Of a DNA stretch of 64,000 nt, positions 9,861 through 62,036 are shown piece by piece. Position 1 is the stretch's first letter, and every line of letters starts with the position of its first letter. A program made the position numbers and the translations under genes. Location: assembly GCA_965153455.1 (NCBI GenBank), contig OZ234493.1, forward strand, positions 19,148,213-19,212,212. The letters are read 5' to 3'. Source of the stretch: Sphagnum compactum. Its lineage: Eukaryota. The notes beneath the pieces were generated by a model. It searched no databases, was not told where the DNA came from, and saw only the letters and a list, made by a program, of their open reading frames with translations.

Positions 9861-10375
9861 TCTTAAGATTTCTCCAACTTTCTCTTCAGATTTCGGCAAT
9901 CTTGTGGGGTGACGATATGCCTCTGCACAACGGCGGCATTCCACTCACGAATAGTTTCAACACATTCCTGCCGCTCCAGCTTTCAAGATTTTAGGGTGTC
10001 AGAGTTCTGGAGGGTTTTCCGGCAATCCAAGCGGGTGAATTTTCAGGATGAGGTTCAATCTGGAATTGCCCGACTGAGAAATGCACAGGTGGTGGTGGGA
10101 GAGAGATTGGAGTTGGGTCGACTTCGGATGCTCGAGAGGGATTGAATTTGTGTCCACTTTGGATGCTCGAGAGGGATTTGCATTTGGGTCTACTTCGGAT
10201 TCTCTTCTCGCTTTTGTTTGCCGAAAATTCTTGACCTGATTAGAGTGATATCTTCCGAAGCAAATCGAATGATTGGACACAATCTATGCAAGATGCAAGA
10301 TCTCATCAAGTTGGCTTTTATGCGATCAAAGGTACATGATTTATTACGAAGTCCCTGGAGGTCAGAGAGAGAACC

Positions 10376-11952
10376 TGTGCGGGAGTTCTTCTTGGATCCT
10401 TCACAATGGTGGGATCACAGATCTGGGAAGGTAACCGAACATCAATCTTGTCAGAGACTTCATATGTCACTGGAGCCATAGCTCTTGTTGGTGTCAATCT
10501 TGTTGTTCTCTCTCTCTCTCTTGGTTGCTATCCTGCCATGGTCTAAAGCTTTGGCAGAAATTCTCTTCAGATCCTTTGAACTGGTGGGGGATAGTAGTAG
10601 TAGGGCTGGAGAAGGTAAGTAACTGCAATGTGCTTGTGGAAAAATTCTCTTGCTGATGGGGAAGATCAGTGTGGCTTTCTCTGTTCTTAGAATAGAATTT
10701 TATGCCAGGGATGTGGAGATTCACATGGCTGATCAGTTTGATCTGGATTTCTGGTACCTGGATTTCAAGCACAAGAAGACACAGGAAGGACTCTGGCTTG
10801 ACAGCTGAGGAAACCTGCCATTGGTGGCAGCAGATGTGGCTGCAATGGCACCAGGCACAGTTCAATTGAACATTTTTGCATGGAATAAGAAGCTTACAAA
10901 ATATGTGAATCATGGGCAACCTGAGAACGTGATGCAGCTCTTCTGATAAATGCAATGAGAATGAATGAGTCCTGACAAATTCACTTTTTTTCAGGTGATT
11001 AACGCATGTGCTGGTTTGGGAGCACTCAAAGATAGCAGGCATGCTCATCAATGGATCATTGAAAGTGGTTTTGAGTCTGATGTCTTTGTGGGGTGTAGCC
11101 TCATTGACATGTATTCAAAATGTGGGGGCATCGACAATGCTTGGAGAGTGTTCAACAAGATGCCACCACACAATGTGGTCACTTGGAATGCCATGATATT
11201 GAGACTTGTGAAATGTAGGCAAGGGTACAATGCACTTGAACTACTTTGACATATGCAACAGGAAACTGTGTGGCCAGACTCTGTTACTTTCATGGGGGTG
11301 CTGAATGTATGTGCCAGCATAATTTGAACTTGAAGACGGCAGGTGTGTTCATGAGCACATTGTTAAAATGTTATGAAATCAGATATCTTTGTGGAAAATA
11401 GCCTTATTGCCATGTATATGAAATGTGAGAGCATGGAGGATGTATGCAAAATGAGGGAGCATTTCAAAATGTGGTCTCTTGGAATGCCATATTTGGAGGA
11501 TGTGCCATGCATGGGCATGGTAAGGAAGCTCTTAAACAATTTGATCAGATGTGGGAAGAAGGTGTCAGTTAGATGATGTTACTTTTGTTTGTCTTCTGTC
11601 AGTTTGTAGCCATGCAGGTTTGGTGGATGATGGCATGCGCTGCTATTGAAAGTGTTGCAATGGCAGACAAAGGAAACAGATGTGAAAAAACTCCTGGATT
11701 GAAGTGAATAACAAGGTGCATACAATGGTAGTAGATGATCAGGACCACCCTCAGGTGACTTCAATCATGCAGAATTGAAGAGACTGTCAGGGCTCATGCA
11801 TGATACAGAGTTCATGCCATACACTAAATTAGTGCTACATGATGTGGAAGAAGGAGATGAAGAAGAAGGGTGCTTCATTTGTGTCACCATAGCAAGAAAT
11901 TGGCTATTACACTGTGGCTCATGAAACACAAACTCCTGGTACTCCACTCTGA
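10376..11952 (+). pseudogene. PLS-class PPR-DYW pseudogene with N-terminal OSB-type PDF motif
   Basis: An exon REFFLDPSQWWDHRSGK ends at a GT donor (10431). YLDFKHKKTQEGLWL follows at 10755 and runs into PPR motifs (SPDKFTFFQVINACAG, ESDVFVGCSLIDMYSKCG, NVVTWNAMI). Then come the PG-box-like WIEVNNKVH and the DYW start (FVLHDVEE..LCHHSKKLAI..TPGTPL*). It has many stops and frameshifts, an internal deletion near 11650, and no DYW C-terminus. Confidence 0.9.
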
Positions 11953-12092
11953 CCAATCCAGCATTCATGCCCTCACAAGTAGGCTGACAAGTCTTTGTAG
12001 TTTATTATTGACTGTTAAATGGGGAAGAGCTCTGGCAATTTGGAGTTCATGAAAACTCATGCTGTCAGGAAAGGTTGTGATATGCTTGGCAG

Positions 12093-12885: not shown

Positions 12886-13035
12886 CCAGGTGTTGCAGTA
12901 GAGTTACTATGGACACTAGTTGGTGGTAAGGTTCAGTTTGTGGAGGCCACTGCAATGCTTGGAAAGGGGGACATACATTTGACAGGACGGCTAGGAGATG
13001 TCATCAAGGAATCATCACAAATTGATCTGACCTGG
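12886..13035 (+). pseudogene. Lon protease (peroxisomal LON2-like) isolated exon fragment
   Basis: [50 protein letters not shown]|gt matches the start of the Lon protease domain (PGVxVGLVWTxxGGEVQFVEAT..[21 protein letters not shown]). Conserved residues are altered and no other Lon exons are visible. Confidence 0.85.
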
Positions 13036-16000
13036 GTTTATCATACAAACTGCAGGATTTGTAGATTCAAACAGCTTGCTTCCCTCCTCTTCTTCATGAG
13101 AAAGTCCATGTAACAGACTGCCTAAAATGGAGGTTTATCCTTAGCACTTACAGACAACAAGTCTTGCCAAAGTGTATGATAGCGATATGAACTCGGAGCA
13201 AGCGCAGTGTGTTAATCTGGGGTGTAAAAATTTGTGAGATTTCTAATTGAATCAGTTTCTCAGAAAAAACTGTTGTATTTGGACCTTGATTCATGCCTTC
13301 TTCCGATGGGACTTTTGTGCAGAGGCAGCAGACATTGTAAGTTTCTGATACTGAAAGAAGGATCCACTTCCTCTAGACCATTATTGCAGGACTGCACATG
13401 ATGCAATCTTGGGCTTTCATGTTGGGACACCTGACCATCTGCCTCGACTTTGAATCGATGCTGCAGAATTCACCGGAACAAAAATACCACTTTTGGTTTG
13501 CTGCTGCTCACTTATCAAGGTTTTGTGACTACAGTCTGTTCATGTGCAGACTTTGTGGACTTTTGACATTACCTCTAGGAATGTGGCCTGAACCAAAACT
13601 CAGAAGCAAACCTCTTTTTCCTTCTGCAATGCCTACCAAAGATTGCAACCTGAAAGCAAATGCTCACAATTTGTCCAACTCATCACCAACATGCGCAACA
13701 GAGTGTTGAAGTGGGAGGGATCGGACAAGGCACCGTGGAACAATGAAAAGAAATATTGTCTTGCTTCTGTTTGTTGGAAACTGCTGCTGATGCACACACT
13801 TCTTGTTGGTATATCCGATCCTTGGCCGCAGATCGTTCAAGGACAAAAGAAAAGTGCCAAGATGAAATTGCCAGAGAAGGTCGAATTTGTATCGATGATA
13901 GACCACGGCCGAAGAACAGATTAGACTGGCTCATGAGGCTGTCAATCTGATAAGCGGCAGTAGAAGACTTTGCAGTAGAGATCGCTGGCCGCAACACAAA
14001 AACTCTCACCCTCTGCACACACAAGCCCCCTCGTCTGCGTCATCAATGAGTTCCGTGCGGGCATCTGTGGAAGAGAATGGCACTTCCACTGGTGTGTTCT
14101 TCGAACTACGATTCCATTCTTCAAAAATTGAACAGGCTCTCGTTGGACAGAGGGTTTCATATCGATCTAGAACGGAGCTGCTGGTCGAGCTGCAACATTG
14201 AGTGATGAGACGGAGAGAGTCACAATACACACTCAGTCAATTCATATCACATCTTCTGAGGCGAAACAGGATGCGCGAAAGATTCCAGTCTAAAGCGGCT
14301 AGGCAACACGTATTGAGGAGCACTTCTGTTTTGTGAGCAGTAGTGAGTACACTAATGGACCGGTGGGGGGATTGAACTTCACAAGGCCTGCAGCGCCATT
14401 TTTGACTGAAGCTGCAAAGCTCCTTGACAGTACCAAGACATTCATTTTTTATTGCAATGTTTTATCTCTCTCTTCTGTTTCTCTTGCCTTCGAGGTTTCC
14501 TCCTGCCAGAAATTGTTGTGCTTGTCATATGGATCATTGCAGTTTGCCAAATGAGTTAGTCCAAACTATTTCGTCTTTGATGCTTCTGCAATCTGCTGCC
14601 TAGAGCTTAGCACATGGTATTATACATGGGTTAATGACTCTGAAGCCATCATGACTTTGTATTTCCTCATAAGCTGCATGCATTTCTGAGCATGAGAAGT
14701 GCAACTTAGATGCATGCTATTCCATTATTTTGAACCCCAATGAACTACAATAAAATTCCAAATAAATAAATAAATAAATAAGGAAATTTTTAATTACTTA
14801 ATTTTATTATTTATTCATATTAATTAATTGGAATACTATTAATATTTTTTAAAATATTTTTCATTATCAACTAGCATATTATTTATAATTACTACATAAT
14901 ATAATTATTATTTAAATATTAAAACCATTTCAAATATTTTATTGTAAATATATTTATTTCATTCTAAAATAATTAATATTAAATATAAATATTCCATTTA
15001 TATATAATCAAAAAATTAATGTATTTTTGGGATGATTTTTAATTAATTATTTAAATAATATAATATAAATAAGTTATAAATTATATGTTATTCTATTTAT
15101 TTTTATTTCTATTTTTAAAAATATTTAATAATTTAATTTACCTAATTTCTTAATATTGAAAATTATTGTAAAATATTTCTACATAAATTTATTTCAATTT
15201 ATTTATTATATCAATTAATGCTATAATTTATTGTTAATTAATGTATAAATATTATCAGTCATAAATCGAAAATATATACTATTGAAATAAAATTTTATTT
15301 TAATTCTGAAAAATAAGCCAGATTTTATTTTCTGCCGTTATTCAATAAAATGCTAAATGATGTTTACAACAAAACAAAATCAGAGTCAAGTATTTTTTTA
15401 ACATAGAAATAAATAATAAATATTATATAATATGTCATTTTACTATAAGATATAAAATACATAACATGTAAAATTCTGCACATATTACATATAAATTTTT
15501 TATTTATCGAATATTTTTATCATCACTTATATATAATATATGAAAACATTTATTTGTTACATGCTATATTGATAAGAAATATATATATTTGTAAATAAAA
15601 TGAATATTATACTAGAGGTATTGATAATTTGTAATAGAAATTTCATTTAAAAAATAATTATATTTCAAAAATAATTTATATTTTAAGACTATATAATCAA
15701 AGTCATATTATAACATAAATTTTAATGTGTATGTATTTAGTATACCATATCTAAAAGTATTGTATTTTGTAAATATAATAACATTAAATGGTCTTGAGGT
15801 TAACATTATTATATGTTGATATATCATATTTTATGAATTATTTGTATTAAATTTCATAATTAAAATGTATTATGTCATACCAAAACAATCATATTTTTAA
15901 ACTTTCTTTCATTTGGACAAAGTATGAAAAAGATAATGATAGTTAAAGAAAGAAAATGTTTTCAAGACATCATTGTTGAAATGTATTGGACTGCAAGATT

Positions 16001-32039: not shown

Positions 32040-35000
32040 TCAATTGGCAACAGATGAAGGTAATTATTTCAAATTGAAACACCTTAACAAATTAAGTTCC
32101 TTGAATGCATTAAATTGGCCTATAAACGTAAGTAATTCCTGCAAGCTCGTACAAATTAAGTTCACACAACTAAAACTTTTGGAGTGCATTTAATTGACCA
32201 ATGTACATGTAAGTAATTTTTGCAAGTTGAAACGTTCACACAAATCAAGATTTTCAAGTGCACTCAATGACCAATAGATGAAAATGGTTTTTTCAAGTTA
32301 GAACACTTTGACAATTGAAGCTTTTGGAATGTACCCAATTGACTAATAGATGAAAATACTTATTTCAAGTTGGAACACCTTGACAAATGAAACACTTTGA
32401 ATGTATTCAATTTGCCCATAGATGAATGTACCTTTTTCACAATGTTTTCAAGTTGGAGAAGTCTTATAAATAAAACTTTTGTAGTGCATTCAATTCATCA
32501 ATTAATGAACGTAGTTTTTTCAAGTTGTCACACCTTGACAAATTAAGTTTTTGGAGTACATTGATTCGCCAATAGATGAACGTAGTTCTTTCAAGTCGTC
32601 ACACCTTGACAAATTAAGTTTTTGGAGTACATTGATTCGCCAATAGATGAACGTAGTTCTTTCAAGTTGTCACACCTTGACAAATTAAGTTTTTGGAGTA
32701 CATTGATTCGCCAATAGATGAGTGTAGTTCTTTCAACTCGGAACACCCTTTCAAATTAAACTCTTGGAGTAGATTGATTGGACAATAGATGAAGGTAGTT
32801 TTTTCAACTCGGAACACCCTAACAAATCAAGCTTTTGAAATGCATTAAATTGGCCAATAAATGAAGGTAGTTCTTTCAAATTGGACCACCATTGTAAATC
32901 AAGCTCTTGGAGTGCATTCAATTGGTCACTAGATGAAAGTAGTTCTTTCAACTCGGAACACCATTGTAAATCAAGCTCTTGGTGTGCATTTAATTGGCCA
33001 ATAGATGAAGGTAGTTCTTTCAAGTTGGAACACCCTGGCAAATCAAACTTTTGGAGTGCATTCAATTGGCCAATAGATGAGGGTAGTTCTTTCAAGTTGG
33101 AACACCTTTGCAAATGAAGCTTTTGGAGTGCATTCAATTGGCCAATAGATGAAGGTAGTTCTTTCAAGTTGGACCACCATGATAAATGAAGCTCTTGGAG
33201 TGCATTCAATTGGCCAATAGATGAAGGTAGTTCTTTCAAGTTGGACCACCATGATAAATGAAGCTCTTGGAATGCATTCAATTGGCCAATAGATGAAGGT
33301 AGTTCTTTCAAGTTGAAACACCCTTGCAAATGAAGCTCTTGGAGTCCATTCAATTGGCCAATAGATGAAAGTAGTTCCTTAAACTCGGAACACCCTTTCA
33401 AATCAAGCTTTTGAAGTGCATTCAATTGGCCAATAGATGAAGGTAGTTCTTTCAAGTTGGAACACCATGATAAATCAAGCTCTTGGAGTGCATTCAATTG
33501 ACCAATATATGAAGGTAGTTCTTTCAAGTTGAAACACCTTTGTAAATGAAGCTTTTGGACTACATTCAGTTGGCCAATAGATGAAGGTAGTTCTTTCAAC
33601 TCAAAACACCATGATAAATCAAGCTCTTGGAGTGCATTCAATTGGCCAATAGATGAAGGTAGTTCTTTCAAGTTGAAACACCCTTGCAAATCAAGCTTTT
33701 GGAGTGCACTCAAATGGCCAAGAGATGAAGGTAGTTCTTCCAAGTTGTAACACCATTGCAAATGAAGCTCTTGGAGTGCATTCAATTGGCCAATAGATGA
33801 AGGTAGTTTTTTCAACTTGGAACACCTTTTCAAATTAAGCTTTTGGAGTGCATTCAATTGGGCAATAGATGAAGGTAGTTCTTTCAAGTTGGAACACTCT
33901 TGCAAATCAAGCTCTTGGAGTGCATTCAATTGGCCAATAGATGAAGGTAGTTCTTTCAAGCTGAAACACCCTTGCAAATCAAGCTTTGGGAGTGCATTCA
34001 ATTGGCCAATAGATGAAGGTAGTTCTTTCAAGTTGAAACACCCTTGCAAATCAAGCTTTTGGAGTGCATTCAATTGGGCAATAGATGAAGGTAGTTCTTT
34101 CAAGCTGAAACACCTTTGCAAATCAAGCTCTTGGAGTGCATTCAATTGGCTAATAGATGAAGGTAGTTCTTCCAAGTTGGAACACCATGATAAATGAAGC
34201 TCTTGAAGTGCATGTAATTGGCCAATAGATGAAGGTAGTTCTTTTAAGTTAAAACACAATGTTAAATGAAGCTCTTGGAGTGCATTCAATTGGCTAATAG
34301 ATGAAGGTAGTTGTTTTAAGTTTGAACACTCTGACAAATTTAGCTTGTGGAGTGCATTCAATTGGCCAATAGATGAAGGTAGTTCTTCCAAGTTGTAACA
34401 CCATTGCAAATGAAGCTTTTGGAGTGCATTCAATTGGCCAATAGATGAAGGTAGTTCTTCCAAGTTGTAACACCATTGCAAATGAAGCTTTTGGAGTGCA
34501 TTCAATTGGCCAATAGATGAAGGTAGTTCTTTCAACTCGGAACACCTTTTCAAATCAAGCTTTTGGAGTGCATTCAATTGGCCAATAGATGAAGGTAGTT
34601 CTTTCAAGTTGGAACACCATGACAAATCAAGCTTTTGGAGTGCATTCAGTTGGCCAATAGATGAAGGTAATTCTTTCAACTCGGAACACCATTGTAAGTC
34701 AAGCTTTTGGAGTGCATTAAGTTGCCCTATAGATACAGGTAGTTTTTTCAAGTTGGAACACCTTTGCAAATCAAGCTTTGGGAGTGCATTCAATTGGGCA
34801 ATAGATGAAGGTAGTTCTTTCAAGTTGAAACACCCTTGCAAATCAAGCTTTTGGAGTGCATTCAATTGGCCAATAGATGAAGGTAGTTCTTTTAAGTTGG
34901 AACACCCTTGCAAATGAAGCTTTTGGAGTGCATTCAATTGGCCAATAGATGAAGGTAGTTCTTTCAAGTTGGAACACCCTTGTAAATGAAGTTGTTGGAG

Positions 35001-35720
35001 TGCATGCAATTGGCCAATAGATGAAGGTAGTTCTTTCAAGTTCGAACACTCTGACAAATTAAGCTTGTGAAGTGCATTCAATTAGCCAATAGATGAAGGT
35101 AGTTCTTTCAAGTTGGAACACCATGATAAATCAAGCTCTTGGAGTGCATTCAATTGGCCAATGGATGAAGGTAGTTCTTTCGAGTAAAAGCACCATGACA
35201 AATCAAACCTTGGGAGTGCATTCAATTGGCCAATAAATGAAGGTAGTTCTTCCAAGTCGTAACATCGTTGCAAATCAAGCTTTGGGAGTGCATTCTTTTG
35301 GCTGATAAATGAAGGTAATTCTTTCAAGTTGGAACACCATGATAAATGAAGCTTTTGGAGTGCATTTAATTGGCCAATAAATGAAGGTAGTTTTTTCAAC
35401 TTGGAACACCCTCGCAAATCAAGCTCTTGGAGTGCATTCAAGTGGCCAGTACATGAAGGTAGTTTTTTCAAGTTGGAACACCATGACAAATCAAGCTTTT
35501 GGAGTGCATTCAATTCGCCAATGGATGAAGGTATTTCTTTCAAGCTAGAACACGATGATAAATGAAGCTCTTGGAGTGCATTCAATTGGCCAATAGATGA
35601 AGGTAGTTTTTTCAACTTGGAACACCCTCGCAAATCAAGCTCTTGGAGTGCATTCAATTGGCCAATAGATGAAGGTATTTTTTCCAAACTTTGGCATTGT
35701 GCCAAGTCAAGTACTTGTAA
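32040..35720 (-). repeat. 72-bp tandem array encoding 24-aa LRRs (41 coding units plus about 10 decayed 3' units)
   Basis: Consensus LQxLxLxxCxxLKELPSSIGQLNA; the plus-strand core GGAGTGCATTCAATTGGCCAATAGATGAAGGTAGTTCTTTCAAG recurs every 72 bp. Units at 32511-32795 have a 71-bp period. Confidence 0.97.
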
Positions 35721-38700
35721 TTATAAACAATAAAATAAATTAGTTGGTAATTTTTGAATCATGCATTTTTTGAGGCACAACCACTTCACGTTATTCAAAT
35801 TTCGCCCTTGGATGAAATTTTCGACTATAGTTGGTGAAGCTTCTGTTAGGTCAACCAACCTAAGGTTGCGAAATCCCTTTGAGCCGATTTGGGACAATGT
35901 AGGCAAATTGACACATTTTTTCAATGACATGCCTTCTAAATTTTCCACCACCTATCACATGAAATGAAAAGAAAAAAGATTATCTATATTAGAAAATTTT
36001 CATCCTAATCCCAATTTTTATCAGAAAAACATTCATTTATAAAATCAAGATTCAAAATTAAAACAGTTGGTCTTGGACTTTTTAAAAAATCATAAAAAAT
36101 CAAAATAAAATTATAGGATTGAAATAGTATAGTGACAACCTCATCCTTTTGTAAATATATATTTGATTTATTTGATTTCCATATAAATCGATTCATAATT
36201 GAAAGTTCCATTGCAATATTTCGACCCATGTCTTGTAATTGTTCATGTATGTACAAGATTCCATCTTCTGCCCACTCAATTAAAGATCTATGTTGTAAAT
36301 TTTGTAATTCAAACTTTGGGTGTTCATAATCTCCACTCCACACTCGACCAATTGTACTTATTTTTAAACCACCAAAAAAACAGGCAATATCAAAAAACAT
36401 GTTTTGATTTTGTTTATCCAAGTCCTCATATGATATCTTTAAAACACTCCAAAGCTCTTCATTATCATTGCCCCCTGTCAAACTTTTCCCACTTTTCAAT
36501 TTGCTCAATGCACCTTCCCACATTTCTAATTCTTTAGTATTGCACAAAAAAGAACCCAATACTTTAAGACTTAAAGGGAGTCCCCCACAAGCTTTTATAA
36601 TCTTCATACATATATCGTTGAAATCCTTTGTTGGAACATGATTTGCATTACCAAATGCATGGAACATAAAGAGTTTTCTTGCTTCCTCTTCCTCAAAAGA
36701 TTTCATGACCATTTTTCCATCTTCACTTACATGAGATTTTAGAATTTGCCAATTTCGACAATTCACAAGTACTCTGCTTTTAGAAGTTGCATTCTTGGCA
36801 CCCTTTTCAATGAGAAGTTGCAAGGATGTAAGGTTCTCCGCCTTGCCAACATCATCCACCACCACTAACACTTTCTTCGATATCATACATTGTCTAATTT
36901 TGTCAAGGGCTTCATTCACATTTTCATCTTCGCATAACCTTTTGCCACACAAATCATGTAGGAGTTGTTTAATGACATCATTAATATCATCCTTTGATTT
37001 CACATCCTCCAAAAAACTAGATTTGTCATATTCGTTGTGGAACAAATGATAGAATTTTTTGCTCAAAGTGGTTTTTCCAATCCCACCCATTCCAACCAAA
37101 CCAACAATAGATTGCTTTTGTAACAGGATGTTTATGTCTTGTGCTTTGTCGATCAACGCCACCTCATGACATGGCAAACTTGGAAGCAATATATTTTTCT
37201 GTCAAAATTCACAAAATATAGGTCATTTATATGTTATCTTTCTTATTTGATAACCAATATATATGACATTGCATATGCGATACACATCAAGTGTGCTATG
37301 ACCTAATGTGTTTCAAAGTACATGAACATATATGAAGTCAAAAGATTTAGATTTGATGTTTTTACTTCCATACATGTTCTCAAACATTTTAACAATATAG
37401 AATAACTTGGATGATCTCTGTTTGGTGGCTTGCAAATTGTCAAATGATTAGCATCCTCAACTATGTAATGGTTGTTGTTTGACAACTGAATAGCTGAGGC
37501 ATGTGGCACTAAAATTCCCTGCATGTGCAAAAGATTAAATTAATGGAATTCATTGACTTCTTTGTTCACTTATGCTTTAACTTATAAACCAAATGGTGGT
37601 GGAAATTATAATTTAATAACTATTGATGTTTGAGTAATAATGAAATATTGTGTACAAGTAATTTCCTTCAACCTTTTGGCAAAAAACCTTATATAAATAC
37701 ATCACAAAGTTATTGGTTTTTAATCTCATGAATCTTACATGCTTTAATGATGTTATGATTTTCCTTGTAATATTTATATGGAATTGATTTGATGAAGGGA
37801 AAATTTAAATTTATTTTTTGATGTTTGAAATCAATCAAATTTCATTTCCATCAATAGTTTTTCATGTAACAAAGTTCATAAAACACATGACCCATTCACC
37901 ACATTAATATATGTAGAAGTATTGAGTACATGATCCCACACAAGTTTTGACAATACGAAAAATGTTCAATTAACGAACCTAGTTGGATAACTTTCAATGT
38001 GATGAAATGAAATCTTACCCAATTTTTGTCGAGTGGTAATCCTTCGCTAAATGCATAAATGTTGAGGTCTTCATGAATGGCATTTTTAAAATCCGTTGAA
38101 AGGTGCTCCATTTGTGAGTTGAAAGATTCTAAATTTTTTAAAAACCCAGATTGGGTTGCATACTTGTTCAATGTGTTGATTCGTTGATGTTTCCAAATGA
38201 AATAATTTGATAGAGATTGGGTGCCACCAACATGTGGTACACTATAAAATACGACACCTTTAACATTGTTCAAAAATGTCTTACAACATTTGTGTACTTT
38301 ATCATCCAAACCATTTTTTGGCCGTTGATATACATGTTTGTGAGCTTCAACCACCAAGCTTTTGAGTACAAGACCTCCAAAACTATAAGCAACTAATGTC
38401 ACCGGTCCATCCCAAAGGGATTGATAACTACAAAATATTCAACAATGCACCAAAATTCCATTATCAACATTGTATTAGAATGACAAATTTATCCTATTAT
38501 ACTTGGGGGCAATTTTCCAATTCACACATGACCTAAGCCATAAGTTCATAATTGATTTGCTTGTCATATGTTGTTTATGGAATCCATTAATACACCTAAA
38601 AAATGTGACAACCATGTTTTGGTAAAACAATTATTATGCACAAGTATGTAGGTGTTTACATTCTTGTGTTAATGTACAACTCATCTTCTATGTGTTACGT

Positions 38701-39447
38701 TGGAAATATAGTGGAAATTTTAAAAAATTAAATTAAAAAACTATATATATACCTTTTTTTTAAAATAATTTTTTCGCAATGAAATGGATGAAAACTTTCT
38801 ACACATGTATCAATTTAATTTAATTTAATTCAATTGCATTACCCTAGATAAAGCTTAAAAAAACGCGAACTCAAAATTGCCATCAAAACCAAACTAGTTG
38901 TACCATGAACTTATAATATGAACATAGACTTTGTTATTATCTTCAAACAAGAACATTTGCCTTAGCCCCAATTTATCTTCTTCTACATGAATCTAACAAT
39001 TCAAGTAAATTAAAACTTGTTGGTGTGTATCACATGAACAATTAACTTGTGCAAAACATGTAAGAAATTCTAAAGATATAAACAATTATCATTAATGTAC
39101 ACAAGGAGAAGTTATTAATGTGTCCATAAATAGAGGAGATGGTCACACCTTGAATTTGTAATCAAACTTTGAACAAGGTTTTTGCCGATTCCAGTCACGT
39201 CATTGTGAACACTTGCCACAATGTTAGAATCATAGGACAATGATAAAATTTGAACATTGTTGTTCAAGTCTTCGGGTAGCCACTTTTCCGGCCAACATAT
39301 GCACTCTTCTCTATTGTTAGTCGGGCATGTTGTCCATGTTTCCTTCCATTCATCATTTGTGCCAAAAGCAATCCCATGAAAAAAGATGATCGTCAAGTTT
39401 GGATTATTGGAATTGCAAGAGGGATTTAAATCATGCACTAGATATTC
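32751..39447 (-). CDS. alpha/beta-hydrolase-NB-ARC-LRR immune receptor (HNL-class NLR); two in-frame stops in the LRR exon, so truncated or a young pseudogene
   Basis: Phase-compatible GT-AG exons are 39447-39149, 38427-38019, 37518-37366, 37198-36140 and 35951-32751; the first coding exon lies upstream and is uncertain. Hydrolase motifs: FFHG, WLPEDL, AYSFGG, FYSVPHVG, NHLTICKP (SERAC1/PGAP1-like). NB-ARC motifs: GMGGIGKTT, LVVVDDV, GGLPLSL, FFDIACFF, IHEQLQDMG. There are 41 LRRs of 24 aa, with TAA stops at 35723-35721 and 35084-35082. Confidence 0.92.
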
Positions 39448-40220
39448 CTGCAAAGAAAAAGAAAACGAGTGAACACAATTCTTTAAATGTCTCTTGGAAA
39501 TTATTTGACTATACATGAAATAAGAAAAATGTAATATACAAATTATAGTAGTTACATAAAAGCAATAATTTGTTGAAAAGATTAAGTTTAACAAGATCAA
39601 AATAATAAATGAATTGGAAAATACCAAATCTATCTTGCATGACTAACAAATGAAGATCATTCACATGTGTCATAGACCACAAAGTTTCAAAACATAGTTC
39701 AATAAGTGAATGTTGTTACATAGTAGGTGGAATGTATGCCAAACAATAAAAGTTAATGCTAAGAACCGGATTCTTTCAAGTTTGGGTTGATTTGCTTAGC
39801 CATCTAGTTTGGTTCATTTGCATTTCATGACATTTTCCCCAATATTTGGGCCTCTAAGGCCTCCCACAGCTAAGGAATTAGGACACAAACCCAATAAGAA
39901 TGTCCAAGAGCAGTTTAATAATTTGCTTTAGGTTGTTGGATCAAGACTACACATTGAACTTAACTCATAATCTATAATGAAAGTTCCAATCCTTACAAGT
40001 TCAATATAATCTTAGTCAATGCCAAATTTTGACAAATTTCCCTTTCACCAATTATACTTGTTATAGCAAATGAGTTGCCAACCAAATGTAAGAGGCTATT
40101 GTGATGACTCCATTTCGTATTGTTTTAAACATCATTTCATATTGTTTTTATCTAAACAACCAAACTGGAAAGTAAGCAAAGTAAAAATGTATGACAAGGA
40201 AGCTTGTAAATGATTGGGGA

Positions 40221-56485: not shown

Positions 56486-59746
<3,261 letters not shown>

Positions 59747-60471: not shown

Positions 60472-62036
60472 CTAAGATGCAAGGTATCCTGATTTCAAAC
60501 ACAAGCAGACACAGGAGACATTCTGGTTCAACAACAGATCAACACCCCCATGGGTGGAAGCAAAGCTTGCAGCAATGGCACCAGAGACTGTACCAATGAA
60601 CATCTTTTCATAGAATGCAAGACTTACAAGATATGCTAAGGCTGGGCATCTCAAGAAGATGATGGAAACTTTTTGGCAAATACAATAACAAGGGCATGAT
60701 TCCCAACAAGTTCACTTTTTCTCAATTGCTCAACAAATGTGCCAGTTTACAAGCACATGAAGAAGGCAGACACATCCATACACAGATCATAGAAAGAGGT
60801 TATGAATCAGATGTGTTTGTTGGTAGTAGCCTTATTGACATGTATGCCAAATGTGGGAACATAGTGGATGCACAGAGAGCATTCAGCAACATGGCTGTAT
60901 GTGATGTGGTCACTTGGAATTCCATGATTCTGGGACATGTGAAATGTGGACAGAGGTTGAAGGCATCGGAACTATCTCAACAAATGCAATGTGAAGGAGT
61001 GCAGCAAAACATTGTCATCTTTGTTGGGTTGCTGAATGCATGCACTAGTGCAGCAACACTTCAGCAAGGAAGGCATGTTCATGAACAGATTCTCTGAAGG
61101 GGTTGTGAGTCTGATTTCTTTGTGGGTGGCAGCATTGTTGACATCTATGCCAAGTGTGGGAGCATAGAGGACGCACAGAGTGTTCAACAAAATGCCCAGA
61201 TGTAATTTAGTCTGTCGGAATCTCTTGCACATTTTGAACAGAGGTTACAAGAAAGTGTGTGAAGATTGGATTGGATCACTTTCATTGCCCTTCTCTCAGC
61301 CTGTAGCCATGCAGGCCTAGTGGTTCAAGGTGTGGTACTTTGAGTCCATGGTTTTGGTTTAGAACATTTTTGCAACATTGGAGCACTATGCCTGCATGGT
61401 TGATCTTCTTGGACTTGCCAGGCATCTGCAGGACACAGAGAATATTATCAATATAATGACCTGCAAACCAACTGTTGCTGGGTGGATGACTTCACTTGGT
61501 GCCTACAGAGTGCATGGGAATGTCAAGATGGAAGAACAGCTTGCAAAACAAGTTGTTAAATTGGCCCCTGCGAGTTCTCGGGGCTGTGGGTTGCTATCAA
61601 ATGTTTATGCTGCTGCTGAGGGATCTCAGTGCAAAGAAGTCTGAAGAAAGAATCAAGTTGCACCAGGATTTCTGTGCATGATAACAAGGTGCATGCTTTT
61701 ATGGAAGGTGACCAAAACTCCCTCAAATGATGGAAATTGCTGCAGAGCTACAGAGGCAGATGAAAGACATTGAGTACAAGTTCGATACCAAATTCATGAT
61801 GTGGAAGAGAAGAACAAAAGATGCTTCACTTTTTCCAGCACACAGCAAGAACCTGGCCATTGCATTTTGGCCTCTTCAGCACCTCCTGGTATTCCAATCC
61901 ACAGTTTCAAGCAACCACCACATTCATCACAAAGATAGCTGGAAGAGAAAGGATCATGAGCGATGGCGATTGCTTTCATCACTGTACAGCTGATGGTGTC
62001 TGTTCATGTGGTGATGATTATTGCCAGTGGACTTAA
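60472..62036 (+). pseudogene. PLS-class PPR-E-DYW pseudogene with N-terminal PDF motif
   Basis: ARYPDFKHKQTQETFWFNNRSTPPWVEAKLAAMAPETV (YPDF at 60485) leads into PPR motifs (PNKFTFSQLLNKCA, ESDVFVGSSLIDMYAKCG, DVVTWNSMI). Then come EHYACMVDLLG, the E domain (GAYRVHGNV..LLSNVYAAA) and a decayed DYW domain (HSKNLAIAF..FITKIAGR..CFHH..DGVCSCGDDY). Multiple stops and frameshifts. Confidence 0.92.

What the first reader, a model, noticed from the sequence alone, without database searches (positions are those of the whole stretch)
10376..10900. OSB-type PDF (ssDNA-binding) motif fused N-terminally to a PPR-DYW editing-factor architecture
Seen: FFLDPSQWWDHRSGK, an intron, then Y(L)DFKHKKTQEGLWL, followed by the linker AAMAPGTVQLN and the first PPR motif. 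Established: FFxxPxxWWDxRxxK...PDFKHKxTxEALW is the PDF motif of plant organellar ssDNA-binding (OSB) proteins, and PLS-DYW proteins are organellar C-to-U RNA editing deaminases that normally carry only a transit peptide upstream. Inference: a family joining an ssDNA-binding module to a sequence-specific deaminase could tether editing to nucleoids or transcription bubbles, or act on ssDNA. I do not know of a functional description of this fusion. This copy is dead.
Basis: partly seen in the sequence, partly recalled or inferred. Interest (0 to 1): 0.8.

Follow-up and report, generated by a model that had tools for sequence, protein, structure and literature searches.

The report
Dead PDF-motif PPR-DYW editing-factor gene
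This is a decayed copy of a moss RNA-editing-factor gene whose intact, expressed relatives carry at their front end the same short nucleic-acid-binding motif known from plant organellar DNA-binding (OSB) proteins, a domain combination I could not find described in print.

Summary
Window 10361-10430 encodes ..REFFLDPSQWWDHRSGK followed by a GT donor. 10755-10808 encodes YLDFKHKKTQEGLWLDS*. The linker AAMAPGTVQLN and a PLS-type PPR tract follow. The copy is dead: a 1-nt deletion in a conserved Trp codon, an 18-nt deletion that removes the splice acceptor, Pro to Leu in P-D-F, 17 in-frame stops, frameshifts and a truncated DYW end. A second dead copy lies at 60476-62036.

The family is real. 144 of 327 stored relatives carry the motif just upstream of the first PPR, in Sphagnum, Calypogeia, Riccia and Diphasiastrum, in one to three tandem copies. 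Many are intact PLS-E-DYW proteins. Intact paralogues with the same intron exist (L029, L062), and the in-frame splice is seen in RNA reads.

The OSB link was tested only indirectly. A 536-bp contig encodes half an SSB-type OB fold, then the same motif: 53% identity, and all 12 residues invariant in the PPR set are kept. No named OSB sequence could be fetched.

Function is inferred: an accessory single-strand nucleic-acid clamp on the 5' side of the PPR footprint. Ten paper searches found no description of the fusion. I rate it a new variant of a known kind, interest about 0.6.

The parts
10361..10430 (+). Internal exon remnant with the first half of the PDF motif (..REFFLDPSQWWDHRSGK). It has a 1-nt deletion in the conserved Trp codon at about 10378/10379.
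   Evidence: Sequence. DNA alignment with paralogues L003, L005, L006, L062 and L029. HMM 31.3 bits.
10431..10752 (+). Intron remnant. The GT donor is at 10431-10432. The 3' end, including the AG acceptor and the first exon-2 codons, is lost in an 18-nt deletion between 10752 and 10753.
   Evidence: alignment, columns 427-444. The intron is conserved in paralogues and is spliced out in RNA of an intact paralogue.
10558..10616 (+). Degenerate duplicate of the first-half exon inside the intron (KFSSDPLNWWG..GLEK followed by gt).
   Evidence: HMM 16.3 bits. The same piece is found in L003, L005, L006, L062 and L066.
10755..10808 (+). Second half of the PDF motif, YLDFKHKKTQEGLWLDS. It carries Pro to Leu in the P-D-F signature (CTG at 10758) and an in-frame TGA at 10806-10808.
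   Evidence: A TGA at the same alignment column is also present in L003, L005 and L006.
10809..10871 (+). Conserved helix and linker of the unit (..AADVAAMAPGTVQLN) that joins the motif to the first PPR.
   Evidence: 29.8 bits. This stretch is a predicted helix in the model of relative P0125.
10872..11930 (+). Decayed PLS-type PPR tract with an E / DYW-start remnant. It has stops and frame changes, and the last roughly 57 residues of the DYW domain are missing.
   Evidence: Pfam PPR_2 at 1.5e-24 on the read-through. 17 stops in this frame over 10623-11960. tblastn segments change frame and end at 11926.
60476..62036 (+). Second dead copy of the same kind. It has the second half of the PDF motif with an intact PDFKHK, the linker, a PPR tract and a decayed DYW tail. 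No first-half exon was found for it.
   Evidence: HMM 65.9 bits. No second QWWD-coding site lies upstream of it.

Best explanation
What it is (shown). Window 10361-11930 is a pseudogene of a nuclear gene family from a Sphagnum-like moss. Intact members of the family read: transit peptide, then one to three PDF units of about 55-60 aa, then a PLS-type PPR array, then E/E+ motifs, then a DYW cytidine deaminase. The PDF unit is the motif otherwise found behind the SSB-like OB fold of organellar ssDNA-binding (OSB) proteins.

How intact members most likely work (inferred). The PPR array reads the RNA upstream of the edited C, and the DYW domain deaminates it. The PDF unit sits directly on the N-terminal end of the array, which is the 5' side of the RNA footprint. 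I propose that it adds sequence-independent affinity for single-stranded nucleic acid. Its invariant aromatic and basic residues (W, F, W, D, K, P-D-F, K, L-W, W) would stack on and hold the strand. This would stabilise binding or keep the site unfolded.

The unit belongs to the RNA-binding part, not to the deaminase, because Riccia proteins have it with PLS repeats and no DYW. It is accessory, not essential for catalysis. The window copy itself does nothing.
For: Dead copy. 17 stops. Frame changes and a truncated DYW end. A 1-nt deletion, an 18-nt deletion and Pro to Leu, all relative to paralogues.

Family. The motif HMM hits 144 of 327 stored proteins. These searches were biased towards relatives of the query. 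In an unbiased-for-motif set of long PLS representatives it hits 7 of 146. 81 motif-bearing proteins are 600 aa or longer; 32 pass a DYW-core regex and 37 end in CSCxD(Y/S)W-type tails. P0083 is a full PLS-E-E+-DYW protein.

Position. In the 46 long proteins with a complete first half, the motif starts at a median of residue 45. A conserved AAMAPGTVQ linker then leads into PPR-1.

Tandem copies. Seven stored proteins show 2-3 motif hits: P0009, P0254, P0115, P0041, P0025, P0188 and P0198. In P0188 and P0198 the extra hits are weak (13-30 bits).

Invariant residues. W13, F17, W23, D25, K30, P36, D37, F38, K41, L47, W48 and W57 are invariant in 46 sequences.

Fold. The AlphaFold model of P0125 has pLDDT 88.5: a helix, a small sheet of short strands, a helix, then the PPR helices.

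Link to OSB. P0328 has an SSB match (PF00436, 3.5e-09) followed by the motif. BLASTP gives 53% identity over 49 aa without gaps, E = 6e-17. The PPR-only HMM scores it at 68.6 bits, against at most 13.7 bits in 1000 shuffles.

Definition of PDF. Reviews describe PDF as a roughly 50-aa ssDNA-binding motif present in 1-3(4) copies (passages read).

Expression. The 293-nt GT..AG joint 6429|6723 in L029 is seen in 1 polyA RNA read, and a joint of the same length shifted by one base in 5 reads at 4 start positions. It is also in 2 metatranscriptome contigs.

Riccia. P0151 and P0156 have the motif plus PPR families only in the precomputed Pfam lists.
Against: No binding experiment or structure of a PDF unit with nucleic acid exists here.

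The fold of the PDF part could not be compared with known folds, because all structural matches covered only the PPR part.

Per the review passage read, OSB proteins bound ssDNA in preference to dsDNA or RNA. That speaks for DNA rather than RNA as the ligand.

The motif is absent from all 16 Ginkgo hits, the 1 Cryptomeria hit, the 1 Selaginella hit and 6 of 12 Diphasiastrum hits. Editing therefore does not need it.

PPR56 edits well in E. coli with only 14 residues kept upstream of its first PPR (passages read). I do not know whether PPR56 has the motif.

The OSB link rests on a single 536-bp contig of unknown true origin, filed in a bacterial MAG.

Most RNA reads matched at 95-99% identity, so they may come from a close paralogue or orthologue rather than from L029 itself.
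Confidence: 0.55

Rival explanations
1. Nucleoid or ssDNA tether. The PDF unit binds single-stranded DNA of nucleoids or transcription bubbles. This places the editing factor where the RNA emerges, so editing is co-transcriptional.
For: OSB PDF motifs are described as ssDNA-binding and as preferring ssDNA over RNA (passages). The PPR-linked unit keeps all 12 invariant residues of the SSB-linked one.
Against: Nothing here shows DNA binding or nucleoid localisation. The unit abuts PPR-1 through a short fixed linker, which fits an extension of the RNA-binding surface at least as well.
Confidence: 0.15
2. Protein-protein module. The unit mediates self-association or recruits a partner. It could be a helper built in cis in lineages that, by my recall, lack MORF/RIP helpers.
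For: OSB2 is reported to be a tetramer (passage). The named hits that carry the motif are bryophytes and a lycophyte. It is absent from all 16 Ginkgo hits and the 1 Cryptomeria hit.
Against: OSB oligomerisation may come from the OB fold. The invariant W/F/K/R pattern is more typical of a nucleic-acid surface (inference). No interaction test was run.
Confidence: 0.15
3. The DYW deaminase of PDF-bearing factors acts on single-stranded DNA.
For: Only the reported ssDNA preference of PDF motifs.
Against: The DYW domains of these proteins are ordinary by Pfam. Riccia has the motif without DYW. No evidence for DNA editing was seen.
Confidence: 0.03
4. The resemblance to OSB PDF is superficial. On this view the stretch is just a lineage-specific N-terminal extension of some PPR genes with no nucleic-acid role.
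For: No named OSB sequence was aligned here. Pfam has no model for the motif.
Against: 53% identity without gaps to a motif behind an SSB domain, with all 12 invariant residues kept. The motif is conserved from liverworts to a lycophyte.
Confidence: 0.05

Closest known systems
[quoted passage not shown]
   Same: They share the same roughly 50-60-aa unit with an invariant P-D-F and flanking W-W-D-x-R and L-W. The unit occurs in one to several tandem copies in organelle-targeted plant proteins. A fragment with an SSB fold plus this motif aligns at 53% identity.
   Different: In OSBs the units are C-terminal to an OB-fold-like domain. Here they are N-terminal to a PPR array, and no SSB or OB domain is present (Pfam on P0083). 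These proteins are therefore not OSBs. The 2026 OSB survey required both domains, so it would not have collected them.
PLS-class PPR-E-DYW RNA editing factors (for example Physcomitrium PPR56)
   Same: They have the same PLS repeats, E and E+ motifs and a DYW deaminase ending in ..CSCxDYW.
   Different: They carry an extra conserved module between the transit peptide and the first PPR. In the PPR56 work, E. coli constructs keep only 14 residues upstream of the first PPR, so such a module would not have been assayed.
MORF/RIP helper proteins of seed-plant editosomes
   Same: They offer a possible functional analogy only: an accessory part that improves RNA binding by PLS repeats. This is recalled; structures 5iwb and 5iww merely appeared among the PPR matches.
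   Different: MORFs are separate proteins with a different fold, and they contact L-type repeats. No similarity to them was tested or seen for the PDF part.

Membership tests
PDF motif (as defined for OSB proteins) | A unit of about 50 aa with a conserved Pro-Asp-Phe signature | tested here: met
   P36, D37 and F38 are invariant in 46 sequences. The unit is about 55-64 aa, judged from the tandem copies. The definition comes from passages read. In the window copy the Pro is mutated to Leu.
PDF motif (as defined for OSB proteins) | Sequence similarity to the motif that stands behind an SSB-like OB fold | tested here: met
   P0328 (L081) has SSB PF00436 at 3.5e-09, then the motif. It aligns to P0083 at 53% identity over 49 aa, E = 6e-17. 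The PPR-only HMM gives 68.6 bits, against at most 13.7 bits in 1000 shuffles. This is a single fragment of unknown organism.
PDF motif (as defined for OSB proteins) | Direct alignment with the annotated PDF regions of Arabidopsis OSB1-4 | not testable with these tools
   No named OSB sequence could be fetched. Zaegel et al. 2006 is not held. That OSB PDFs share the W-W-D-x-R and P-D-F-K-x-K core is recalled only.
PDF motif (as defined for OSB proteins) | One to several tandem copies | tested here: met
   Seven stored proteins show 2-3 hits. P0254 and P0009 have three clear copies; P0115, P0041 and P0025 have two. In P0188 and P0198 the extra hits are weak.
PDF motif (as defined for OSB proteins) | Binds single-stranded DNA | not testable with these tools
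   This needs a binding assay.
OSB protein family | An OB-fold-like (SSB-like) domain N-terminal to the PDF units | tested here: not met
   Pfam on P0083 and on the 46 members of alignment A3 lists no SSB or OB family among those shown. These are PPR proteins, not OSBs.
PLS-class PPR-DYW editing factors | PPR repeats of PLS type | tested here: met
   Window read-through: PPR_2 at 1.5e-24. P0083: PPR_2 at 1.8e-100.
PLS-class PPR-DYW editing factors | A C-terminal E motif and a DYW deaminase with the HxE and CxxCH zinc sites | tested here: met
   This is met in relatives. P0083 has DYW_deaminase at 3.7e-44, E_motif at 5.4e-15, and a weaker E+ match below the Pfam cut-off. 32 of 81 long motif-bearing proteins pass the regex. 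L029 and L062 are intact. The window copy keeps only the start of the domain.
PLS-class PPR-DYW editing factors | An intact reading frame (a functional gene) in this window | tested here: not met
   17 stops, frame changes, a lost splice acceptor and a truncated end. The second copy at 60476-62036 is also broken.

The most novel reading that the evidence does not exclude
In bryophytes and lycophytes a large share of organellar C-to-U editing factors carry a built-in OSB-type ssDNA-binding module. This module docks them on the single-stranded DNA of nucleoids or transcription bubbles, so that editing is coupled to transcription. In the extreme version, the DYW deaminase can reach DNA. This would be an ancestral solution that seed plants later replaced with separate helper proteins.
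Probability: 0.12. Interest if true: 0.85.

Novelty: new variant of a known kind. Interest (0 to 1): 0.6.

Why it matters
PPR-DYW proteins are the model for programmable RNA base editors and for how plant organelles edit RNA. OSB PDF motifs are the least understood plant organellar nucleic-acid-binding module, and I know of no solved structure (recall).

A conserved PDF module on the 5' end of many early-land-plant editing factors has three consequences:
- It gives a natural, testable handle on what PDF binds.
- It suggests a built-in affinity or helper element. In the one such study I read (PPR56), the heterologous constructs kept only 14 residues upstream of the first PPR.
- It documents domain shuffling between the DNA-maintenance and RNA-editing machineries of organelles.

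The window locus itself is only a pseudogene. The value lies in the family it points to.

Tried and rejected
- Pfam on the window pieces and on intact N-termini found no family for the motif.
- The word-index search for short non-PPR proteins with the motif gave 60 hits, all PPR fragments or short unannotated pieces from Sphagnum-type sources or Riccia, and no OSB.
- My one all-against-all HMMER job was wasted. hmmbuild treated the short rows as fragments, so the profile had 1004 positions and returned generic PLS proteins. I reused those only as an unbiased PLS sample.
- ESM Atlas searches with PPR families skipped gave no usable hit, twice.
- phmmer of the motif against PDB sequences found nothing relevant.
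- The metagenome scan returned 80 loci, all PPR-linked, and no OSB locus among the 80 kept of 480 relatives.
- The structure of a motif-only fragment (P0148) was poor, pLDDT 62.6, so I did not search with it.
- VIA-align and Foldseek searches with the good model matched only its PPR part, residues 73-123. The fold of the PDF part therefore remains uncompared.
- Three of the four genome contigs pattern hits (L082-L084) were chance matches in bacterial DNA.
- Zaegel et al. 2006 is not held, and supplements were closed. An earlier mention of PPR-linked PDF motifs there, or in supplements of PPR surveys, cannot be excluded.

Full report
**1. The observation**

On the + strand the window reads ..EREPVREFFLDPSQWWDHRSGK, ending at 10430, followed by gtaacc. 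About 320 nt later it reads ..DLDFWYLDFKHKKTQEGLWLDS, then TGA at 10806-10808. In the same frame it continues GNLPLVAADVAAMAPGTVQLN and then IFAWNKKLTKYVNHGQPENVMQLF, the first PPR. Pfam finds PPR families in the read-through (PPR_2 at 1.5e-24) and nothing for the upstream pieces.

A motif HMM built from relatives only scores the window pieces at 31.3, 23.6 and 29.8 bits. It also scores 16.3 bits on a degenerate duplicate of the first half inside the intron (10546-10590). The best hit outside the two gene copies anywhere in the six-frame window is 9.7 bits.

**2. The copy is dead, and how**

The frame of exon 2 holds 17 stop codons between 10623 and 11960. tblastn with intact relatives needs several frame changes. 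It ends at 11926, so about 57 C-terminal residues of the DYW domain are missing.

The DNA alignment with the closest paralogues (L003, L005, L006, L062, L029; 87% mean column identity) shows four further defects:
- a 1-nt deletion in the codon of the conserved Trp of ..KLW.EFF.., at about 10378/10379;
- an 18-nt deletion between 10752 and 10753, which removes the intron's AG acceptor and the first exon-2 codons;
- Pro to Leu in the P-D-F signature, CTG at 10758;
- a TGA at the same alignment column as in L003, L005 and L006.

P0001, a predicted protein 85% identical to the exon-1 ORF, carries the same ..EREPVREFF.. reading. I take this to reflect the same 1-nt deletion. So decayed copies of this lineage occur more than once in public data.

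The ORF starting at ATG 10269 is not the real start. In relatives the first motif half lies in a short internal exon, preceded by a transit-peptide exon.

A second decayed copy lies at 60476-62036. It reads DARYPDFKHKQTQETFWFNNRSTPPWVEAKLAAMAPETVPMNIFS*, followed by PPRs and a decayed DYW tail. No first-half exon was found for it.

**3. The family is real, intact and expressed**

A protein search with the exon-2 read-through gave 1692 hits. The best named ones are from Sphagnum species, Calypogeia fissa, Diphasiastrum complanatum, Ginkgo and others.

A simple regex found the motif in 57 of the 121 proteins then stored. The local HMM found it in 144 of the 327 stored. These sets were collected with motif-bearing queries and are biased towards the motif. 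Among 146 long PLS representatives collected without regard to the motif, 7 have it.

The consensus is ..eKLWrEFFsDPSQWWDhRsEKvNaRYPDFKHKKTqEALWL...NPPWVeAELAAMAPGTVQ, followed directly by PPR-1. In 46 aligned sequences W13, F17, W23, D25, K30, P36, D37, F38, K41, L47, W48 and W57 are invariant.

Other features of the family:
- Seven proteins show two or three motif hits. In two of them the extra hits are weak.
- In the 46 long proteins with a complete first half, the motif starts at a median of residue 45. That leaves room for a targeting peptide (inference).
- P0083 is a complete PLS-E-E+-DYW protein, with DYW_deaminase at 3.7e-44.
- 13 of the 46 aligned members match DYW and 15 match the E motif; 21 of the 46 are fragments under 320 aa.
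- Of 81 motif-bearing proteins of 600 aa or more, 32 pass an HxE..CxxCH regex and 37 end in CSCxD(Y/S)W-type tails.

In 80 loci from moss-associated metagenome contigs, the motif is followed by PPR coding on the same strand in 79; in L049 the contig ends. These loci are not independent, because several are the same place assembled in different samples.

In most loci the motif is unsplit. In 8 (L003, L005, L006, L029, L030, L039, L062, L066) it is split after ..EK by an intron of about 290 nt, as in the window. L029 and L062 have intact exon-2 ORFs of 855 and 754 aa, running from TNERYPDFKHK.. to ..CSC(M/T)DYW.

When RNA runs were laid on L029, the joint 6429|6723 (293 nt skipped, GT..AG, phase 0, joining EK to TNERYPDF) appeared in:
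- one polyA RNA-seq read;
- five reads at four start positions, as a joint of the same length shifted by one base;
- two contigs of a metatranscriptome.

Caveat: 59 of the 67 laid reads matched at 95-99% identity, so they may come from a close paralogue or orthologue.

**4. Is it the OSB PDF motif?**

Reviews describe the PDF motif as about 50 aa, named after conserved Pro, Asp and Phe, present in one to three or four copies C-terminal to an OB-fold-like domain, and responsible for ssDNA binding (passages read). The PPR-linked unit meets the length, signature and tandem-copy features.

I could not fetch a named OSB sequence, and the founding paper is not held. A pattern scan of the prokaryote genome collection gave four places. 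Three are chance matches. The fourth, L081, is a 536-bp contig filed in a bacterial MAG, and I take it to be a eukaryotic contaminant (inference).

Its single ORF (P0328) holds:
- the C-terminal half of an SSB domain (PF00436, 3.5e-09, 37.1 bits against a cut-off of 26; bacterial SSB structures also match);
- a poly-Gln linker;
- a stretch that aligns to P0083 residues 63-111 at 53% identity without gaps (E = 6e-17).

All 12 residues that are invariant in the PPR set are kept in this stretch. The PPR-only HMM gives it 68.6 bits, against at most 13.7 bits for 1000 shuffles of the same stretch. An SSB fold followed by this motif is the OSB architecture.

I take the homology as well supported, at about 0.9. 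It rests on one fragment of unknown organism, plus my recall that OSB PDFs share the W-W-D-x-R and P-D-F-K-x-K core. The PPR proteins themselves are not OSBs, because they have no OB or SSB domain.

**5. Structure**

AlphaFold2 with a 46-row alignment models P0125 (the motif plus 1.5 PPRs) at pLDDT 88.5. The elements are a helix over ..EKLWQEFFS, short strands at WWD, FKH and AL, a helix over WVETELAA, and then the PPR helices.

Structure searches matched only residues 73-123, to PPR proteins such as 5iwb_B (Z 10.7, rmsd 1.1 over 51 residues) and 9kfx_A (Z 9.0). The motif-only model was too poor to use. The fold of the PDF part is therefore not compared with anything.

**6. How it most likely works**

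These points are shown:
- the architecture;
- the fixed position of the unit, abutting PPR-1;
- its conservation across the named taxa (liverworts Calypogeia 5 of 5 and Riccia 2 of 2; Sphagnum; the lycophyte Diphasiastrum 6 of 12);
- its absence from 16 of 16 Ginkgo hits, 1 of 1 Cryptomeria and 1 of 1 Selaginella. Those lists are small and ranked by similarity, so this is not proof of absence.

This part is inferred. PPR arrays bind RNA with their N-terminus towards the 5' end (established knowledge, recalled). The unit would therefore sit on the 5' side of the footprint. With its invariant aromatic and basic residues it would act as a sequence-independent single-strand clamp that raises affinity or keeps the site unfolded.

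The unit goes with the RNA-binding part, not with the deaminase. The Riccia proteins P0151 and P0156 have it with PLS repeats and no E or DYW families on record. By my recall, marchantiid liverworts lack RNA editing.

OSBs are reported to prefer ssDNA over RNA. And editing works without the unit in many proteins. PPR56 edits in E. coli with only 14 residues kept upstream of its first PPR; whether PPR56 has the unit is unknown to me.

I put the cis-acting single-strand clamp at about 0.5 given the architecture, the nucleoid or ssDNA tether at 0.15, a protein-interaction role at 0.15 and DNA deamination at 0.03.

**7. Novelty**

None of the ten full-text searches returned a paper describing the motif in PPR proteins.
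- 'PDF motif' with pentatricopeptide: 1 paper, a review in which the two words are unrelated.
- OSB with DYW: 1 paper, irrelevant; passage read.
- 'PDF motif' alone: 5 papers, 3 on OSBs.
- Peptide strings: none relevant.
- OSB1 with pentatricopeptide: 12 papers; listing only seen.
- OSB-like or PDF domain with pentatricopeptide: 1 paper, without the latter word.
- OSB2/3/4 with PDF: found a 2026 OSB survey.
- Sphagnum with DYW and PPR: 2 papers; listing only seen.
- The first search served only to find the OSB reviews.

The following were not seen: Zaegel et al. 2006, all supplements, and subscription-journal PPR surveys. On this evidence the fusion is an undescribed architecture built from two known parts, that is, a new variant of a known kind. 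The locus in the window is only a pseudogene of it.

**8. Verdict**

- Observation: confirmed.
- Interpretation of the architecture: supported.
- Functional reading: open and testable.
- Interest: 0.6.

Noticed in passing
window 32751-39642 (- strand): A large resistance-gene-like locus. It has an NB-ARC domain (8.9e-36) with a Roq1-like winged helix, a long array of near-identical LRRs (ORFs of 776 and 212 aa), and upstream a weak DUF676 serine-esterase match (0.0007, just under the Pfam cut-off). This would be a hydrolase-NB-ARC-LRR arrangement.
   Followed up: partly
window 12889-13044 (+ strand): An isolated Lon protease C-terminal proteolytic-domain piece (Lon_C, 4.9e-13) just downstream of the dead PPR gene. 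No other Lon match was noted nearby; only ORFs of 130 aa or more were surveyed. It may be a gene fragment or a lone exon.
   Followed up: partly
window 58343-58795 (- strand): An exon-like piece of a tRNA-dihydrouridine synthase (Dus, 2.9e-09), about 1.7 kb upstream of the second dead PPR copy and on the opposite strand.
   Followed up: no
window 10558-10616; also L003, L005, L006, L062, L066: The intron that splits the PDF motif contains a degenerate duplicate of the first-half exon with its own GT. The duplicate is conserved among paralogues. It may be a relic of an exon duplication or an alternative exon.
   Followed up: partly
L003, L005, L006 and protein P0146: Several paralogues have a TGA right after the motif, at the same alignment column as the window's TGA (10806-10808). 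Their gene models end there as proteins of about 106 aa made of a transit peptide plus one PDF unit. They are probably pseudogenes, but stand-alone PDF mini-proteins are not excluded.
   Followed up: no
proteins P0151 and P0156 (Riccia fluitans, R. sorocarpa): 458-aa PLS-type PPR proteins with the PDF unit and a roughly 60-residue spacer, but no E or DYW families on record. By my recall their lineage lacks organellar RNA editing.
   Followed up: partly
L081 (536-bp contig filed under a bacterial MAG): It encodes an SSB-fold, poly-Gln, PDF-motif protein fragment. I take this to be eukaryotic (plant or streptophyte) contamination of a metagenome bin.
   Followed up: yes
L026 5542-5706 and L027 9824-9988 (- strand): A second, partial PDF second-half piece on the opposite strand near an intact PDF-PPR gene. 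This suggests that copies are clustered.
   Followed up: no
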